DNA of 64,000 bases, from positions 8,081 through 72,080 of the forward strand of contig JBEKCH010000003.1 in NCBI GenBank assembly GCA_050014975.1, written 5' to 3'. Source of the stretch: Candidatus Limnocylindrales bacterium (GTDB lineage Bacteria; Chloroflexota; Limnocylindria; Limnocylindrales; CSP1-4). Numbering within the stretch: position 1 is the stretch's first letter; each line of letters begins with the position of its first letter. The notes beneath the pieces are model-generated. The model searched no databases, was not told where the DNA came from, and saw only the letters and a program-made list of their open reading frames with translations. Shown here in pieces: positions 16,150-42,193 of the stretch. The position numbers and the translations under genes were made by a program.

Positions 16150-16418
16150 GACTGGAAATCTACCATGTGTTCGACTGGGCTTTCCCTGAGAGTATCGTCA
16201 CGCGGGTCACGATCCAACAGTCCGAGATCGCGGGCCCTTCAACCTAAGGACCCTGATCGGGCGCCCCTGGTTCCCCAGTCTTCTGTAATCGATACGATCC
16301 GGGCCGCCCAACGGATCGTAGCTGCCAGAACTTGTCTTCGCACGGCCTGCGTGCAACTTGGGAACCGGGCTGGCAGGCGGGCCCCGGGCGGGTGTAGAGT
16401 CAGCCCACAACAGAAAAC

Positions 16419-16510
16419 ACGACAGGGGAGCGCCGGCGGGCGCTGAGAGTGCGGAGCGGATCCGCAGACCCTTGGAACCTGATCCGGGTAATGCCGGCGA
16501 AGGGAGTCAA
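16419..16510 (+). ncRNA. TPP riboswitch
   Basis: AGGGGAGC...GCTGAGAG...AGACCCTTGGAACCTGATCCGGGTAATGCCGGCGAAGGGA upstream of thiamine genes. Confidence 0.96.
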
Positions 16511-16517
16511 GCACCGA

Positions 16518-16549
16518 GCACCTCTGTCGAGTCCGATGGAGGTGTTTTC
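16518..16549 (+). terminator. TPP riboswitch expression-platform terminator
   Basis: GCACCTCTGTCG-agtc-CGATGGAGGTGT stem followed by TTTC. Confidence 0.7.
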
Positions 16550-38211: not shown

Positions 38212-38376
38212 GCCCGAATGATGCCCGCTGTCCACGGGCTGCGCCAGGCCTGGTGCGGTGACGCGACCGCCGGGTCGCCCTGTGCCCATGCCACGGTGGT
38301 CCTCGCGTTCCGATCGGCTGAAGCCCCACGGTAGCCAGCTGCCTGGAGACGCGCTAGCATGTTGGTCGGTTCAACC

Positions 38377-38424
38377 CGCGATGAAGCTCGCGCAGTTTCC
38401 CGCCCAGCGGGTGATGGCTTCTGG
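38377..38424 (+). ncRNA. Fluoride riboswitch (crcB motif)
   Basis: CGCGATGAAGCTCGCG (P1 CGCGA/TCGCG), P2 CCCGC-cca-GCGGG, TGATGGCTTCT forming pseudoknot GAAGCT/GGCTTC; -10 TAGCAT at 38355. Confidence 0.82.
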
Positions 38425-38450
38425 ACACCGGTCCGGAGGCCTTTTTCGTT
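38416..38450 (+). terminator. Terminator overlapping the fluoride aptamer 3' end
   Basis: GGCTTCTGGAC-accg-GTCCGGAGGCC (11 bp, 2 G-U) followed by TTTTTCGTT. Confidence 0.85.
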
Positions 38451-38481
38451 ATCAGGCGGCCGCGGCCACTGGGGACGAATC

Positions 38482-39492
38482 ATGAGCAAGACCGACCCTG
38501 TCGAAACGGAGGCCGCGCCGGCCGGTGGACTTCCGAACACCAGCCAGGCACGTATCGGCCGCTTCTGGCGGGATCTCCGGGCTGCGGTCGCGGGCGCCGT
38601 CGTAGGTGAAGAGCCGGCCCTGCGTCTCCTTGCCGTGGCCCTGCTCGCCGACGGCCACGCTCTCATCGAGGACGTCCCAGGCGTGGGCAAGACGTTGCTC
38701 GCCCGCGCGTTCGCCCGCTCGCTCGGCCTTTCGTTCAGCCGCGTACAGGGGACACCCGACCTGCTCCCGACCGACGTTACTGGATCCAGCATCCTCGAGG
38801 CCGGCCGGCTGCGCTTCGTAGCGGGCCCGGTCTTCGCCAACGTCCTCCTGGTCGACGAGATCAACCGCGCCACGCCGCGTACCCAGTCGGCGTTTCTCGA
38901 GGCGATGCAGGAGCGCCAGGTCTCGATCGAGGGCGAGACGCGACCACTGCCTTCACCGTTCCTGGTCGTAGCCACGCAGAACCCCATCGAGCTCGAAGGG
39001 ACGTTCTCGCTGCCGGAGGCCCAGCTCGATCGATTCCTGGTCCGCGTGACCATGGGCTACCCGGACCGCGACGAAGAGCGGCGGATCGCCCGGCGCTACC
39101 GCGGCGGCGATGAGCCGCTGGATCGAATCGAACCGATCGTCGACCGTGACACGCTCCTCGCTCTGAAGCGGGCGGTAAGCGAGACCGTCGTCAGCGACGC
39201 CGTGGAAGGCTATGCGGTCGACCTGGCCCGCGCGACGCGGGGGCACGCGGACATCCGCCTCGGGGCGAGCCCGCGGACGAGCGTGGCGCTCTTCCGGGCG
39301 AGTCAGGCCTGGGCCGCTCTCGAGGGGCGAGGCTTCGTCCTGCCCGACGACGTGGTCGCGGTCGCCCGCCCGGTCCTGGCCCACCGGCTCCTGCTCGACG
39401 TGGACCGCCAGCTCCGCGGCGCGACCGTCGAGCGGGTGCTGATCGAGGTGCTGGACTCGGTGCCGGTGCCGGTGCCGGTACCCGAAAGATGA
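38482..39492 (+). CDS. moxR: MoxR family AAA+ ATPase (MRP subfamily)
   Basis: EDVPGVGKT, DLLPTDVTG, DEINRATPRTQSAFLEAM, ATQNPIELEGT, PEAQLDRF. Confidence 0.95.
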   Translation: MSKTDPVETEAAPAGGLPNTSQARIGRFWRDLRAAVAGAVVGEEPALRLLAVALLADGHALIEDVPGVGKTLLARAFARSLGLSFSRVQGTPDLLPTDVTGSSILEAGRLRFVAGPVFANVLLVDEINRATPRTQSAFLEAMQERQVSIEGETRPLPSPFLVVATQNPIELEGTFSLPEAQLDRFLVRVTMGYPDRDEERRIARRYRGGDEPLDRIEPIVDRDTLLALKRAVSETVVSDAVEGYAVDLARATRGHADIRLGASPRTSVALFRASQAWAALEGRGFVLPDDVVAVARPVLAHRLLLDVDRQLRGATVERVLIEVLDSVPVPVPVPER

Positions 39493-40724
39493 CCCGAGCG
39501 GGACTCGCCTTCGGTCTCGCCCTCGTCGTCGCCGGCGCGGTCGTGGCGGCGCCCGGACTCGTCCTCGTCGGGGTCCTGGACCTCCTGACGGTCGGCGTGA
39601 CCGGGTTGTGGAGTAGCTACGGATTGCACAACCTGCACTATGAACGGACGATCGGCAGCGACCGGGCGGTCTGGGGCGACGAGGTGCCCCTCGACGTCGC
39701 GGTCTGGAACGATAAACCGCTTCCTCTTGCCTGGCTCCTGATCGACGATTTCGCGACCCAGGGCGCGGTCGTGCGCGATGAGCCCCTCGCGCGGAGCGAT
39801 CGACCCGGCTTCACGATTCTGCGCAGCCGCTGGACGGTCGGCTGGTACGAGCGCGTCGTGCGCCATCTCACGATCCTGGCCGACCACCGCGGCGTGTATT
39901 CCTTCGGCCCCGTTCGCGTCACGGTCGCCGACCTGTTCGGCCACGGGGCGGCGACCGAGGAGCACGAAGACCGCGGCGCGTACATCGTGCGGCCGCGCAG
40001 CCTGCCGGTTCGCCTGGCCAGCCAGCAGCAGGCTCCAGCAGGCTACCTTCGAGCCCGCCACAGCCTTTTCGAGGACCCGGCTCTCTTCGCCGGCGTCCGC
40101 CCTTATCAGCCAGGCGATCCGCTGCGGCGTGTCCACTGGCGCGCGACCGCTCGGACGGGGGCAACCGTGAGCAAGCGGTTCGACCCATCCCGCGCGCTTC
40201 AGGTGCTCGTCGCGCTCGACGTTCAGACCGTGGCGGGCCCGCACTGGACGCTGCACTTCGACGAGGACCTCGTTGAGAGCCTGATGGTCGCGGCGGCCTC
40301 CCTGGCACGCCAGGCGCTCGCCGAGGGCGCATCGTGCGGCCTGGCCGCGGCGGCGTTCAGCCGGACCCTCAACCTGTTCGCCCTGGCCGCCCCACGTGCC
40401 GGCCGGGACCAGCTGGCCGCGATCACCGACCTGCTGGGGCGCCTCAGCGAGGTGCCGTCGGCGCCTTTCGAGCGCCTCCTCGCTCGCCTGCCGCAGACAG
40501 TCTCACCGGGCACCACCGTCCTGGTGCTCACCGCCCGCGACCCCGCACCGTACATCGCCGCGCTCAGCCGGCTCGACAGATCCGGCTACCACGTCCAGCT
40601 TGTCGGGCTCGGCCCGAACGGCGATCGTGCCGCGGCGCGGGCCCGGGCGGTCGGACTCGCGGCGACGATCGGCTCGCTCACGCCGGACTGGCGGACCAGC
40701 GATGCGTTGGTCCTGGCGAGCTGA
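39489..40724 (+). CDS. DUF58 domain-containing protein
   Basis: GVRPYQPGDPLRRVHWRATAR; coupled to moxR. Confidence 0.92.
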   Translation: MTRAGLAFGLALVVAGAVVAAPGLVLVGVLDLLTVGVTGLWSSYGLHNLHYERTIGSDRAVWGDEVPLDVAVWNDKPLPLAWLLIDDFATQGAVVRDEPLARSDRPGFTILRSRWTVGWYERVVRHLTILADHRGVYSFGPVRVTVADLFGHGAATEEHEDRGAYIVRPRSLPVRLASQQQAPAGYLRARHSLFEDPALFAGVRPYQPGDPLRRVHWRATARTGATVSKRFDPSRALQVLVALDVQTVAGPHWTLHFDEDLVESLMVAAASLARQALAEGASCGLAAAAFSRTLNLFALAAPRAGRDQLAAITDLLGRLSEVPSAPFERLLARLPQTVSPGTTVLVLTARDPAPYIAALSRLDRSGYHVQLVGLGPNGDRAAARARAVGLAATIGSLTPDWRTSDALVLAS

Positions 40725-42093
40725 CCCGCTCCCCGTCGCGCTCGACGCGCTGCTCGAAGGCAGCCTCGTCGGCGTGCCGTACCTGGCCATCGCGTCGGGG
40801 GGCACGAGCTCGAGCGCACCGATGTCGCTCGTCGAGTTCTGCCTCGCCGCCGCGGCCGGACTCGTTTGGGCTCGCCTGCGCCCGCAAGAAGCGCCGCGGG
40901 CGCTCTGGATCGGCGCCGTGGCGCTCCTCGCCGGTGCTTTCGGCTGGATCGCCGATCCGGGGGCTCGCGCCGCACTTGCCGCCCACACCGATCCGCTCGG
41001 GGCGCTCGGCCTTCACCCCGCAGGCTGGCTGCTCGGTGTCTCGGTCGTGCGCGGCTCGGCCCACGAGCAGGCGGCCGACGAGATCGACGTCTCGACCCGG
41101 GCATTCGCGTATGCGTTCCCCGTGCTCGCTGCGTCCTGGTTGCTGCACCTCGGACCGGGCGGCTCGTTCGCCGGGCCGGCCCTGGTCGGGTCCGTCGTAT
41201 GCGTCGGCTCCGGGCTGCTCGCGATCGGCCACGCCCGCTTGCGAGAGCTCGAGCTGCTCGGCTCAGATGGCCGTGGCGGTCGCACCTGGCCGATGCTCGC
41301 GGCCGGCGTCGTGGTCGCCGTCGCGGCCCTGGCGATTCCGACCGCGCTCCTCACCGGGACCTCCGCGCGGGACGTCGTGTCCGCCATCGGCGGCCCGGTC
41401 GGTGGGGCGACCGGAGCGCTGTTCGCACCCCTCGGCAGTCTTCTGGCCGCCCTGGCATCCGCTCTCGGGCAGTTCCTCAACGGCATTCACCTGCCTTCGT
41501 TTCCCGGCCTGGGTGGAGGCGGGGCCGCCGGCGCGAGTCCCGCCCCGAATGCCGGCCCGAGCGCCGGCGGGTCGGGTCGAGCTCCCGTCGGGGGACCCAG
41601 CGGCTCCTCGCCGCTCGGCCTGCTCATCCTGGTTGGGCTTGCCGTTGTCGTGGTCGCGGTGACGCTGTTGCTTCGTCGGCTCCTCGCCGCGCGGCCGACC
41701 GTGCCCCACGCCGCGCGACCGCGCGAGGAACGACACCGAGAGCTCCATCGGCCACGCTTGAGCCTCCGCCTGCCGCTGCCGGCCATCCACCCGCGCCTCG
41801 CCCTGCGGCGGCATCCGACATCCGCGGCAGCGGCATACGTCGCGTTGCTGGACGCTCTCGACGACAGGGGCGAGCTAGCACGGGAGCCGGCTGAGACACC
41901 GGAGAGCCACGCCGAGCGGGCCGGCAGTCGCGGGCTGTCGCGCCTGCCGCTCGGGCTGCTGGCCGCGGACTACGAGCTCGCGGTCTACGGGCGAACGCGG
42001 ATCAGCGAGGCGGAAACGGTTCGTGCGCTCGGCCGCTGGCGCCGGCTTCGGCGCGTGGCCCGCGACCTGCCGCGCCGGGGTGGCCAGGCCTGA
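40702..42093 (+). CDS. Multi-TM protein with C-terminal DUF4129
   Basis: Many TM segments; REPAETPESHAER...YELAVYG. Confidence 0.82.
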   Translation: MRWSWRADPLPVALDALLEGSLVGVPYLAIASGGTSSSAPMSLVEFCLAAAAGLVWARLRPQEAPRALWIGAVALLAGAFGWIADPGARAALAAHTDPLGALGLHPAGWLLGVSVVRGSAHEQAADEIDVSTRAFAYAFPVLAASWLLHLGPGGSFAGPALVGSVVCVGSGLLAIGHARLRELELLGSDGRGGRTWPMLAAGVVVAVAALAIPTALLTGTSARDVVSAIGGPVGGATGALFAPLGSLLAALASALGQFLNGIHLPSFPGLGGGGAAGASPAPNAGPSAGGSGRAPVGGPSGSSPLGLLILVGLAVVVVAVTLLLRRLLAARPTVPHAARPREERHRELHRPRLSLRLPLPAIHPRLALRRHPTSAAAAYVALLDALDDRGELAREPAETPESHAERAGSRGLSRLPLGLLAADYELAVYGRTRISEAETVRALGRWRRLRRVARDLPRRGGQA

Positions 42094-42116: not shown

Positions 42117-42193
42117 TGGTAGGGGAGGGAGGACTCGAACCTCCAACCGAGGCTGTATAAGAGCCGTGCTCTGACCAATTGAGCTACTCCCCC
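42117..42193 (-). tRNA. tRNA-Ile(UAU), 77 nt, CCA encoded
   Basis: GGGGGAG TA GCTC AATTGGTCA GAGC A CGGCT CTTATAC AGCCT CGGTT GGAGG TTCGAGT CCTCC CTCCCCT ACCA; anticodon TAT, discriminator A. Confidence 0.92.

What the first reader, a model, noticed from the sequence alone, without database searches (positions are those of the whole stretch)
38355..42093. Fluoride riboswitch controlling a MoxR AAA+ / DUF58 / DUF4129 operon
Seen: -10 TAGCAT, then CGCGAUGAAGCUCGCG-caguuu-CCCGC-cca-GCGGG-UGAUGGCUUCUG. This matches crcB-motif architecture (P1, P2, pseudoknot GAAGCU/GGCUUC, conserved GAUG and UGAUG). The pseudoknot 3' strand doubles as the 5' arm of an 11-bp terminator with a U5 tail, 31 nt before the moxR ATG, making an ON switch. 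Established: fluoride riboswitches mostly control Fluc/CrcB or CLC-F exporters and fluoride-sensitive enzymes. MoxR-DUF58 modules are poorly understood chaperone systems, often tied to metal-cofactor insertion or membrane complexes. I know of no described fluoride-induced MoxR module. Inference: an undescribed fluoride-stress system, such as remodelling of Mg-F-poisoned enzymes or a new membrane resistance complex. Caveat: the usually A-rich joiner is CAGUUU here, so an altered ligand is possible.
Basis: partly seen in the sequence, partly recalled or inferred. Interest (0 to 1): 0.82.

Follow-up and report, generated by a model that had tools for sequence, protein, structure and literature searches.

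The report
Variant fluoride riboswitch before MoxR operon
A short RNA leader that looks like a divergent form of the fluoride-sensing riboswitch sits in front of a poorly understood chaperone-like (MoxR) operon in an uncultured peat bacterium, which hints at the signal that operon answers to.

Summary
The sequence is there as described. It is a real, conserved RNA element, but not a textbook fluoride riboswitch. Rfam's Fluoride model scores it 14.9 bits against a cut-off of 34.

My own covariance model and a pattern scan found 61 copies, almost all in Limnocylindria (Chloroflexota) MAGs.

What it keeps:
- P1, P2 and the pseudoknot.
- The GAUG and UGAUG binding-core letters and the U that partners the 'linchpin' A.
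- A terminator whose 5' arm is the pseudoknot's 3' strand, which makes an ON switch.

What it lacks is the conserved AACC joiner.

The 61 copies precede MutS-like ATPase pairs (26), NUDIX/MoxR-DUF58-DUF4129 operons (14 with MoxR), enolase, MFS and a metallophosphoesterase. None precedes CrcB or a cation/proton antiporter.

Canonical, above-threshold fluoride riboswitches of the same class precede exactly those transporters (27 of 34). In some genomes they lie 0.1-2.5 kb from a variant copy.

In this window a clean 435-nt deletion removed the NUDIX gene that relatives carry between leader and moxR. MoxR was already in the operon, so the switch is not stranded.

The ligand is untested. I put fluoride at about 0.7. 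Verdict: a new variant of a known kind, moderately interesting.

The parts
38332..38360 (+). Putative promoter: -35-like TAGCCA (38332-38337), 17-nt spacer, -10-like TAGCAT (38355-38360). The inferred start lies near 38367-38368.
   Evidence: Read. TAGCAT is kept in 9 of 10 leaders of this type aligned. The consensus scan found no promoter-like site, because each hexamer matches only 4 of 6. The promoter is inferred, not shown.
38376..38393 (+). P1 hairpin: CGCG/CGCG stem with 8-nt loop AUGAAGCU. The loop holds the GAUG core and the 5' strand of the pseudoknot (GAAGC, 38383-38387). The outer pair 38376/38393 is a C-C mismatch here.
   Evidence: In 59 distinct copies the four inner pairs never vary. 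The outer pair is GC 30, AU 11, GU 7, CG 2, unpaired 8.
38394..38398 (+). Joiner J1/2 (AGUUU). It replaces the conserved (G)AACC of canonical fluoride riboswitches.
   Evidence: Rfam consensus and canonical relatives. The joiner is variable in sequence and length across the 61 copies.
38399..38411 (+). P2 hairpin: CCCGC, loop CCA, GCGGG.
   Evidence: The 4th pair is GC 55, AU 1, GU 1. The 5th pair is CG 28, UA 8, UG 7, GC 1, unpaired 13.
38412..38422 (+). 3' core: UGAUG (38412-38416), the pseudoknot 3' strand GCUUC (38417-38421), and U38422, which corresponds to the partner of the 'linchpin' A.
   Evidence: Aligned to the Rfam consensus UGAUGACUCCU. The roles of the linchpin A40-U48 and of U41 come from passages of PMC11077080. 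The pseudoknot is complementary in 59 of 59 distinct copies, but it varies only by A-U to G-U in 5.
38416..38446 (+). Intrinsic terminator: an 11-bp stem whose 5' arm contains the pseudoknot 3' strand, then U5.
   Evidence: In 58 of 58 copies tested, a hairpin of -16 to -22 kcal/mol starts at this G, and 56 of 58 have at least 4 U in the next 9 nt. The upper stem covaries, e.g. GC 32, CG 20, AU 2, UA 1.
38453..38481 (+). Remnant of the 3' end of a deleted NUDIX gene. It now serves as the spacer and ribosome-binding region before moxR.
   Evidence: Global alignment with the G018 locus shows one 435-nt gap from just after the terminator to about 32 nt before the moxR ATG.
38482..39492 (+). MoxR-type AAA+ ATPase, 336 aa, with Walker A GVGKT and Walker B DEINR present.
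   Evidence: Pfam AAA_3 1.1e-57 and AAA_lid_2 2e-20. Translation. It is one of three MoxR paralogues in the genome; the others are 52% and 47% identical.
39489..40724 (+). DUF58 protein, 411 aa, with a hydrophobic N-terminus. Its start overlaps the moxR stop by 4 nt.
   Evidence: Pfam DUF58 6.7e-11. Translation.
40702..42093 (+). Multi-pass membrane protein with a C-terminal DUF4129 domain, 463 aa. It overlaps the end of the DUF58 gene.
   Evidence: Pfam DUF4129 2.3e-08. The start was set by tblastn with the orthologue. Translation.

Best explanation
Window 38368-38446 encodes a divergent member of the fluoride-riboswitch fold. The fold has P1, P2 and a 5-bp pseudoknot between the P1 loop and the 3' tail. 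The GAUG and UGAUG core and the linchpin U are kept. The conserved AACC joiner is replaced by a variable one.

It is joined to an intrinsic terminator whose 5' arm is the pseudoknot's 3' strand. Without ligand the terminator forms and transcription stops at the U-run, 35 nt before moxR. With ligand, most likely a fluoride ion held by Mg2+ on backbone phosphates as in the canonical class, the pseudoknot is locked, the terminator cannot nucleate, and MoxR-DUF58-DUF4129 is transcribed.

Shown:
- The sequence architecture.
- Its conservation in 61 copies.
- Covariation in the terminator.
- The gene contexts.
- The NUDIX deletion.

Inferred:
- The promoter and transcription start.
- Ligand identity.
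- The switching itself.

Why the operon is induced is inference. The regulon of this subclass consists largely of Mg-dependent phosphoryl-transfer and nucleotide-using enzymes: enolase, NUDIX, metallophosphoesterase, MutS-like ATPases and the MoxR ATPase. Several of these enzyme types are known fluoride targets. Induction could therefore compensate for inhibited activity, or let a membrane-anchored MoxR/DUF58/DUF4129 machine remodel damaged complexes. Exporters, by contrast, are run by the canonical subclass.
For: 1. Best and only Rfam family: Fluoride, full-length alignment 1-64, 14.9 bits. Canonical relatives in the same class score 37-56 bits. They differ from this RNA mainly in the joiner, the P1/P2 letters and the tail.
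2. Model R1: 19 hits of at least 60.9 bits in 13 of 51 genus genomes, with all other hits at or below 21.7 bits. Hits of at least 48 bits occur in 9 of 151 class genomes from two families. A GTDB-wide pattern scan gave 59 matches in 57 stretches, 53 of them labelled Chloroflexi or Limnocylindria.
3. Terminator overlapping the pseudoknot in 58 of 58 tested copies, with compensatory changes.
4. Downstream genes of the 61 copies:
   - 26 MutS_V pairs (3 of them seen only as the first gene at a locus end).
   - 14 operons with MoxR.
   - 3 with NUDIX at a locus end.
   - 3 NUDIX followed by an unknown 450-aa protein.
   - 1 directly before enolase.
   - 2 MFS.
   - 1 metallophosphoesterase.
   mutS is a published crcB-motif association, as are overlapping terminators (PMC2864571, section 'crcB motif'). 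Enolase, pyrophosphatase and ATPases are named fluoride targets (PMC11777429 passages).
5. Physical linkage to canonical units. In G024:C3 a canonical element (44.3 bits) with crcB lies 2.5 kb upstream of a variant copy. In G047:C184 a canonical element with crcB is divergent from a variant copy, 113 nt apart.
6. The same gene families sit under both subclasses. The 450-aa protein follows canonical elements in 2 of 34 cases and follows variant+NUDIX in 3. In family f3 an MFS-MutS operon follows a canonical-like element with a GAAC joiner, 28.9 bits.
7. One copy (L157:1121-1183, 40.4 bits to R1) combines variant P1 and pseudoknot letters with an AACC-containing joiner, and lies 25 nt before enolase.
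8. The leader-moxR junction stands identically in contigs of three runs.
Against: - The Rfam score is far below the cut-off, and the strongly conserved AACC joiner is absent in essentially all copies.
- The pseudoknot and most of P1/P2 never vary within the subclass. Their support is therefore homology plus one A-U/G-U/G-C series, not independent covariation. The 59 GTDB copies were also found with a pattern that fixed those letters.
- Five of 19 variant-bearing genomes also keep a canonical element above the cut-off. The two subclasses have non-overlapping first genes: 0 of 61 variants precede CrcB or an antiporter, and 0 of 34 canonical elements precede MutS, NUDIX or MoxR. In other riboswitch classes this pattern has signalled a changed ligand.
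- Four of 12 evaluable orthologous MoxR operons in the genus have no such leader.
- This genome, 93.7% complete, shows none of the following: CrcB, the riboswitch-linked antiporter, the MutS pair, a canonical fluoride riboswitch.
- No binding or expression data exist.
Confidence: 0.7

Rival explanations
1. Same fold, different signal. The joiner-less subclass has drifted to another ligand, such as another small anion or a metal-ligand complex, or to a very different fluoride range. It would then run a cytoplasmic stress regulon separate from fluoride export.
For: - The canonical joiner is lost in all copies.
- Canonical and variant elements coexist in 5 of 19 variant-bearing genomes.
- Their first genes do not overlap: 0 of 61 against 0 of 34.
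- The window's own genome keeps the variant but shows no known fluoride exporter.
Against: - All letters that align to the canonical binding core are unchanged.
- In the canonical class the ion contacts only Mg2+ and backbone phosphates (PMC8752731 and PMC5473149 passages). A changed joiner therefore need not change the ligand.
- The variant regulon (mutS-like, enolase) is the published or expected fluoride regulon.
- Variant copies sit beside canonical-crcB units.
- Shared gene families and an intermediate copy link the two subclasses.
Confidence: 0.17
2. A relic in this genome. After the NUDIX deletion the leader is a constitutive terminator or a leaky leftover, and MoxR is expressed from elsewhere or not regulated by it.
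For: - The outer P1 pair is a C-C mismatch only in this copy among the type-A leaders.
- A 435-nt deletion touches the 3' flank.
- The rest of the fluoride-linked gene set was not found in the genome.
- A hairpin at 38445-38479 could cover the ribosome-binding site.
Against: - The promoter-like hexamers, all core letters, the pseudoknot complementarity, the terminator and the U5 run are intact.
- NUDIX-less leader-moxR junctions also occur in three other lineages: L150, L149 and L133.
- The deletion ends precisely outside the terminator and keeps the moxR upstream region.
- The three genes are open and overlap as in relatives.
Confidence: 0.06
3. Not a ligand-sensing RNA. It would be a protein- or ribosome-dependent attenuator, or a small RNA, that only resembles the crcB motif by chance.
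For: Rfam E-value of only 0.099 in 301 nt, and a fold z-score of -1.52.
Against: - A full-length match to one family only.
- 61 copies with the same core before unrelated genes on many contigs.
- A continuum to above-threshold Fluoride elements in sister families.
- No leader peptide was noticed in the 60 nt before the terminator, but this was not tested formally.
Confidence: 0.04

Closest known systems
Fluoride riboswitch (crcB motif, Rfam RF01734)
   Same: - A P1 hairpin with an 8-nt loop carrying GAUG.
- A second hairpin.
- UGAUG followed by a strand that pairs with the P1 loop (pseudoknot), then a U at the linchpin position.
- A terminator overlapping the 3' part, giving an ON switch.
- Placement before mutS-like genes and enolase (PMC2864571, PMC11077080 passages).
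   Different: - Scores 14.9 bits against a cut-off of 34.
- The conserved AACC joiner is replaced by a variable 4-14-nt joiner that usually ends in U.
- P1 is CGCG rather than GGCG.
- P2 is CCCG/CGGG rather than GCC/GGC.
- The tail is CUGG or CUAG rather than CUAC.
- Never found before CrcB or the antiporter (0 of 61).
- Ligand untested.
Canonical fluoride riboswitches of the same class (Limnocylindria)
   Same: They occur in the same genomes and sometimes on the same contigs. The pseudoknot letters are one pair away: GAGGC/GCCUC, with GAGGC/GCUUC as a G-U intermediate, against GAAGC/GCUUC here.
   Different: - Canonical elements keep GAACC, often after an extra hairpin in the joiner.
- They precede a CPA2/Na_H_Exchanger gene (16 of 34), CrcB (11), an unknown 450-aa protein (2) or a TauE-like protein (1). 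No match was found for 4.
MoxR (MRP-type) AAA+ with DUF58/VWA partners, e.g. Bat-like and NorQ/NorD-type chaperone systems
   Same: AAA_3 ATPase followed by a DUF58 protein and a membrane protein. MoxR/VWA pairs act in cofactor insertion (abstract of PMC9976466, seen in the listing). The rest is my recollection.
   Different: I found no published link of such a module to fluoride or to any riboswitch. Here it is one of three paralogues, and the only one with the leader.
Variant riboswitch subclasses with changed specificity (e.g. rare FMN variants, PMC6298564; listing only)
   Same: A conserved subclass that departs from the parent consensus and has its own gene associations.
   Different: In those cases ligand-contacting bases are changed. 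Here the aligned core is unchanged and the departure lies in a joiner.

Membership tests
Fluoride riboswitch (RF01734) | Reaches the curated covariance-model score (34 bits) | tested here: not met
   14.9 bits, E 0.099 in 301 nt. Not listed at gathering score in the window or in the genome. Other variant copies score 18.8-22.6 bits.
Fluoride riboswitch (RF01734) | P1 stem with an 8-nt loop containing GAUG, and a second hairpin | tested here: met
   97.6% of cells paired, against 31.6-59.9% when the partners are slid.
Fluoride riboswitch (RF01734) | Pseudoknot between the P1 loop and the strand 3' of UGAUG | tested here: inconclusive
   The five pairs are complementary in 59 of 59 distinct copies, but four pairs never vary and one varies on one side only. 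Against canonical relatives the same pair runs A-U, G-U, G-C. The copies were partly found with a pattern that fixed these letters.
Fluoride riboswitch (RF01734) | Core letters at the ion site (A, U, G of GAUG; U, G, A, U, G of UGAUG) and the linchpin A-U | tested here: met
   All are identical to the Rfam consensus in the alignment and invariant. Their roles are taken from PMC11077080 passages. Residue numbering beyond A40, U41 and U48 is recalled.
Fluoride riboswitch (RF01734) | Conserved AACC joiner between P1 and the second hairpin | tested here: not met
   AGUUU here. The joiner is variable in the 61 copies, whereas nearly all of the 34 canonical relatives keep (G)AACC or a one-letter variant.
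Fluoride riboswitch (RF01734) | Terminator or other platform that competes with the pseudoknot (ON switch) | tested here: met
   Published for the class in PMC2864571.
Fluoride riboswitch (RF01734) | Association with fluoride-toxicity genes | tested here: met
   MutS-like pairs in 26 of 61 copies, enolase, and adjacency to canonical-crcB units. However, 0 of 61 copies precede an exporter of known type.
Fluoride riboswitch (RF01734) | Selective binding of fluoride and fluoride-dependent read-through | not testable with these tools
   No binding or expression data. No RNA run holds the stretch.
MoxR AAA+ (AAA_3) / DUF58 module | AAA_3 ATPase with intact Walker motifs next to a DUF58 protein | tested here: met

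The most novel reading that the evidence does not exclude
The joiner-less RNA is a separate sensor class built on the fluoride-riboswitch fold. It would answer to a different ligand or a very different fluoride range than the canonical switches kept in the same genomes. It would command a cytoplasmic damage-control regulon in which the MoxR-DUF58-DUF4129 machine is a dedicated effector. That would give this enigmatic chaperone family its first defined inducing signal.
Probability: 0.17. Interest if true: 0.85.

Novelty: new variant of a known kind. Interest (0 to 1): 0.63.

Why it matters
1. Rfam annotation misses a whole subclass of fluoride-type riboswitches. It numbers 61 copies in one bacterial class, so fluoride regulons in Chloroflexota are under-called.
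2. The split looks like a two-tier response: canonical switches on transporters, variant switches on cytoplasmic Mg-dependent enzymes and ATPases. It can be tested with two RNAs from one genome.
3. MoxR-DUF58 modules are widespread and their function is poorly understood. A cis-acting sensor in front of one gives a concrete condition under which to assay it.
4. The same applies to several unknown proteins that share the regulon: a 450-aa family, a 150-300-aa family, and a HEAT/zinc-ribbon protein.
5. The variant shows which part of the aptamer (the joiner) can be replaced while the core is kept. This is useful for structural work and for biosensor design.

Tried and rejected
- Baker 2012 (PMC4140402) and Ren 2012 (PMC3744881) are not held, and supplements are closed. 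Their gene-association tables, which might already list MoxR or NUDIX, could not be checked.
- Literature searches for a fluoride-MoxR/DUF58 link gave only unrelated papers.
- A search for described fluoride-riboswitch variants listed 12 papers. None was on such a variant by title. I read passages of one only (PMC5473149).
- Sequencing runs: no RNA holder was listed, so there is nothing on expression. The DNA contigs laid only confirm the junction.
- Metagenome pattern scan with free pseudoknot letters: one match. By eye it has no complementary pseudoknot and looks like coding DNA, so there was no extra covariation test.
- Weak R1 hits at or below 22 bits in the genus lie in coding-like sequence and lack the core, so they were rejected.
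- I looked for pairing between the conserved 5' flank (CAACCGA-like) and the joiner. There was no consistent scheme by eye, and RNAalifold predicted none. The flank is better explained as the transcription-start region behind a conserved -10-like ACAAT/TAGCAT. This is inference.
- My crude ORF chains called 'c5' and 'c7' proteins, which proved to be wrong-frame or antisense readings. The enolase in L165, L146 and L120 lies about 3 kb from the variant copy. In L165, the only one of the three whose ORFs were listed, opposite-strand genes lie between, so none of the three is counted as controlled by the variant copy.
- The genome's only CLC protein (678 aa, ClcA/ClcB-like with a TrkA-C-like end) gave no sign of being a fluoride-type CLC. 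No specific model for that type was available.

Full report
**1. What is in the window**

- A -10-like TAGCAT lies at 38355-38360. It is preceded at 17 nt by a -35-like TAGCCA (38332-38337).
- P1 is CGCG (38377-38380) paired with CGCG (38389-38392), around the loop AUGAAGCU.
- The joiner is AGUUU.
- P2 is CCCGC/GCGGG (38399-38411).
- UGAUG lies at 38412-38416.
- GCUUC (38417-38421) is complementary to GAAGC in the P1 loop (38383-38387).

The scan finds one terminator-like site: stem 38416-38441, 11 pairs, loop of 4, then T5. Shuffles give 0.2 such sites. Its 5' arm contains the pseudoknot's 3' strand. From the T-run to the moxR ATG (38482) there are 35 nt, not 31.

The three genes are:
- MoxR (AAA_3, 1.1e-57) at 38482-39492.
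- DUF58 at 39489-40724.
- A membrane protein with a C-terminal DUF4129 domain at 40702-42093.

Upstream and divergent lie a GNAT acetyltransferase and an M50 peptidase. Downstream lies a tRNA on the other strand.

**2. Is it more than chance?**

Taken alone, barely.
- Rfam's Fluoride model is the only sensible match. It aligns end to end but scores 14.9 bits (cut-off 34; E 0.099 in 301 nt).
- Nothing reaches the cut-off in the window or the genome.
- The fold z-score is -1.52.

Conservation decides the matter.
- The leader DNA is 83-93% identical in 8 of 24 same-genus genomes, while the moxR coding DNA beside it is 72-79% identical.
- I built a covariance model (R1; 13 copies; P1 and P2 only).
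- In the genus, R1 finds 19 hits of 60.9-85.2 bits in 13 of 51 genomes. Nothing else scores above 21.7 bits. The weak hits are noise.
- In an even draw of 151 genomes of the class, hits of at least 48 bits occur in 9 genomes of two families. The next best hits, at or below 32.7 bits, are canonical Fluoride elements.
- A pattern scan of one genome per GTDB species gave 59 matches in 57 stretches. Of these, 53 are labelled Chloroflexi, Chloroflexia, Limnocylindr- or Anaerolineaceae, one is labelled 'bacterium', and three carry other phylum labels.
- With the window and a second copy in L157, that makes 61 copies.

**3. Anatomy across copies**

Pair counts on the model-fitted alignment of 59 distinct rows:
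- The four inner P1 pairs and four of the five pseudoknot pairs never vary.
- One pseudoknot pair is A-U in 54 rows and G-U in 5.
- The outer P1 pair is GC 30, AU 11, GU 7, CG 2, unpaired 8.
- The fourth P2 pair is GC 55, AU 1, GU 1.
- The fifth P2 pair is CG 28, UA 8, UG 7, GC 1, unpaired 13.

The alignment leans to the model, and the 59 GTDB copies were found with a pattern that fixed the core. The invariance therefore says little either way.

The terminator is independent of that ascertainment. I tested 58 copies. Three were left out before the count:
- L166, which lies at a locus end.
- L129, which by eye has no such hairpin and carries another phylum's label.
- The second L157 copy.

All 58 have a hairpin of -16.2 to -22.3 kcal/mol starting at the pseudoknot's 3' strand, and 56 have at least 4 U in the next 9 nt. 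RNAalifold shows compensatory changes in the upper stem, e.g. GC 32, CG 20, AU 2, UA 1.

**4. Relation to the known class**

Canonical elements of sister lineages score 37-56 bits. They read GGCGAUG(A/G)GG..CGCC-(G)AACC-GCC..GGC-UGAUG..CUAC, often with an extra hairpin in the joiner.

The window's RNA keeps GAUG, UGAUG and the U after the pseudoknot. These correspond to the ion-site residues, to the highly conserved U41 and to the A40-U48 'linchpin' described for the class (PMC11077080 passages).

In the class, fluoride touches only three Mg2+ ions held by backbone phosphates (PMC8752731 and PMC5473149 passages).

The pseudoknot letters form a series:
- GAGGC/GCCUC in canonical elements.
- GAGGC/GCUUC in one canonical element, with a G-U pair.
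- GAAGC/GCUUC in the variant.

What the variant lacks is the AACC joiner, replaced by 4-14 variable nucleotides. It also has its own P1 and P2 letters.

One copy (L157:1121-1183) has variant P1 and pseudoknot letters with an AACC-containing joiner. Further sub-threshold Fluoride-like elements of other flavours (18-32 bits) are scattered over the same contigs.

**5. Gene contexts**

tblastn with reference proteins on up to 7 kb downstream of the 61 copies (Pfam) gives:

| Downstream context | Copies |
|---|---|
| Pair of MutS_V ATPases | 26 (3 seen only as the first gene at a locus end) |
| Operons containing MoxR-DUF58(-DUF4129) | 14 |
| NUDIX at a locus end | 3 |
| NUDIX then an unknown 450-aa protein | 3 |
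| Directly before enolase (25 nt) | 1 |
| Unknown ORF, then the second riboswitch and enolase | 1 |
| A 262-aa ORF without a Pfam match | 4 |
| MFS alone | 2 |
| Metallophosphoesterase | 1 |
| Catalase (the doubtful L129) | 1 |
| No match, or too little DNA | 5 |

The 14 MoxR operons divide as follows:
- 7 start with NUDIX.
- 3 start with MFS then NUDIX.
- 4 start with MoxR itself: the window, L150, L149 and L133.

None of the 61 precedes CrcB or a cation/proton antiporter.

For comparison I examined 34 canonical elements at or above the cut-off, with 1.5 kb of downstream DNA or less (139-732 nt in three of them):

| Downstream gene | Canonical elements |
|---|---|
| CPA2/Na_H_Exchanger gene | 16 |
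| CrcB | 11 |
| The 450-aa protein | 2 |
| TauE-like protein | 1 |
| No match | 4 |

None precedes MutS, NUDIX or MoxR.

Canonical elements at or above the cut-off occur in 34 of 151 class genomes. This tally includes one genome flagged as unpublished, G142.

mutS, ion transport and formate hydrogen lyase are the published contexts of the crcB motif, as are overlapping terminators (PMC2864571, section 'crcB motif'). Enolase, pyrophosphatase and ATPases are named fluoride targets (PMC11777429 passages).

**6. Linkage of the two subclasses**

- Five of 19 variant-bearing genomes also hold a canonical element over the cut-off.
- In G024:C3 the canonical element and crcB lie 2.5 kb upstream of a variant-NUDIX unit. 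A variant-MutS unit converges on that unit from about 5 kb further downstream.
- In G047:C184 a canonical-crcB unit and a variant-metallophosphoesterase unit diverge from a 113-nt spacer.
- G187:C72 carries six Fluoride-like elements.
- In family f3 the variant was not found, and the MutS-like gene was found in only 2 of 81 genomes.
- One of those two (G084) has a canonical-like element (28.9 bits, GAAC joiner, CUAC tail) followed by MFS and MutS.
- The other (G073) has, by eye only, a canonical-like element before MutS.

Shared gene families under both subclasses, and their adjacency, favour the same signal. The clean split of first genes and their coexistence keep a changed ligand or threshold alive as a rival.

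**7. The window's own arrangement**

Aligned with G018, the window has one 435-nt gap. It runs from just after the terminator to about 32 nt before the moxR ATG. It removes the NUDIX gene, which in relatives overlaps moxR by 4 nt. The switch therefore always governed MoxR, and the deletion merely brought them together.

Contigs from three runs carry the junction unchanged. One of these runs may be the source of this DNA.

In the genus, 13 genomes hold an orthologue of this MoxR (75-100% identity). Paralogues are at or below 54%. Of the 13:
- 8 have the leader.
- 4 do not, and show no Fluoride-like element within 1.5 kb.
- 1 lies at a contig start.

The window's genome is 93.7% complete in 148 contigs. 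It has this single copy of the variant. None of the following was found in it:
- A canonical element.
- CrcB.
- A homologue of the riboswitch-linked antiporter.
- The MutS pair.
- An orthologue of the NUDIX gene.

Absence from an incomplete MAG is not proof.

**8. Mechanism and its standing**

The architecture is that of a transcriptional ON switch. Ligand-stabilised pseudoknot and terminator are mutually exclusive because they share 38417-38421.

I hold the following with these confidences:
- Homology to the fluoride class and the switching logic: about 0.9.
- Fluoride as the ligand: about 0.7.
- Any specific role for MoxR-DUF58-DUF4129: low.

The most economical reading of the regulon is that it gathers Mg-dependent phosphoryl-transfer and nucleotide-using proteins. 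Their activity would have to be topped up or rescued when fluoride rises. The MoxR module, membrane-anchored through its partners, would be one such component.

**9. Comparison and novelty**

This is not a member of RF01734 by the curated score. It fails one conserved feature, the joiner, but it works like one by every other feature I could test.

I found no paper that describes a fluoride-riboswitch variant, or a fluoride or riboswitch link for MoxR/DUF58. The founding papers and all supplements were out of reach, so prior listing of such genes cannot be excluded.

I rate it a new variant of a known kind.

Noticed in passing
window 16414-16522 (+): A TPP riboswitch, 72.7 bits against a cut-off of 54.3, full length.
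   Followed up: no
window 42120-42193 (-): A tRNA gene (66.9 bits) directly after the DUF4129 gene on the other strand. It bounds the operon.
   Followed up: no
window 38445-38479 (+): In the minimum-energy fold, a third hairpin pairs the U-run's flank with the GGGGACGA just before the moxR ATG, and could mask the ribosome-binding site. It is made partly of the NUDIX remnant, so it is specific to this deletion form.
   Followed up: no
L145:5350-6711 (+); also L180 and L181 downstream of canonical elements; L165:4295-5884 (-): A 450-530-aa protein family without any Pfam or NCBIfam match, with a conserved N-terminal motif (VEVEEALGPG-like). It follows variant+NUDIX in 3 loci and canonical Fluoride elements in 2. 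It is a candidate unknown fluoride-response protein.
   Followed up: partly
G187:C72 (L092, L093, L106); G084:C2 (L184, L224): 'Fluoride islands': six and four Fluoride-like elements of different flavours on one contig. They precede, among others, a NADH-dehydrogenase/Hyf-like membrane subunit, MFS, MutS-like and NUDIX-MoxR genes.
   Followed up: partly
L157:2638-2709 (+); L165:6264-6337 (-): Sub-threshold Fluoride-like elements (25.5 and 23.5 bits) lie at the start of a small gene for a zinc-ribbon plus HEAT-repeat protein next to enolase.
   Followed up: no
L204 and L205, about 20-110 nt upstream of moxR: Two of the riboswitch-less MoxR orthologues (G002, G023) share a different conserved upstream stretch, GCTAAGCTGACGGCAGCGAGGC...AGCGAGACGGAGGGTTTGC. 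It may be another leader or a promoter region.
   Followed up: no
L161:3118-3582 (-); L091:2813-3733 (-); L003:1618-2163 (-): A 150-300-aa protein without family match (conserved RLR.LEERLA motif) follows the MutS-like pair in several loci. In G018 it lies just upstream of the variant leader.
   Followed up: no
L129 (Solirubrobacteraceae label), L132 (Acidimicrobiaceae label), L135 (Terriglobia label): Three pattern matches lie in MAGs labelled as other phyla. L132 and L135 have the usual MutS-pair context and terminator, which suggests mis-binning or transfer. L129 precedes a catalase, lacks the terminator, and may be unrelated.
   Followed up: no
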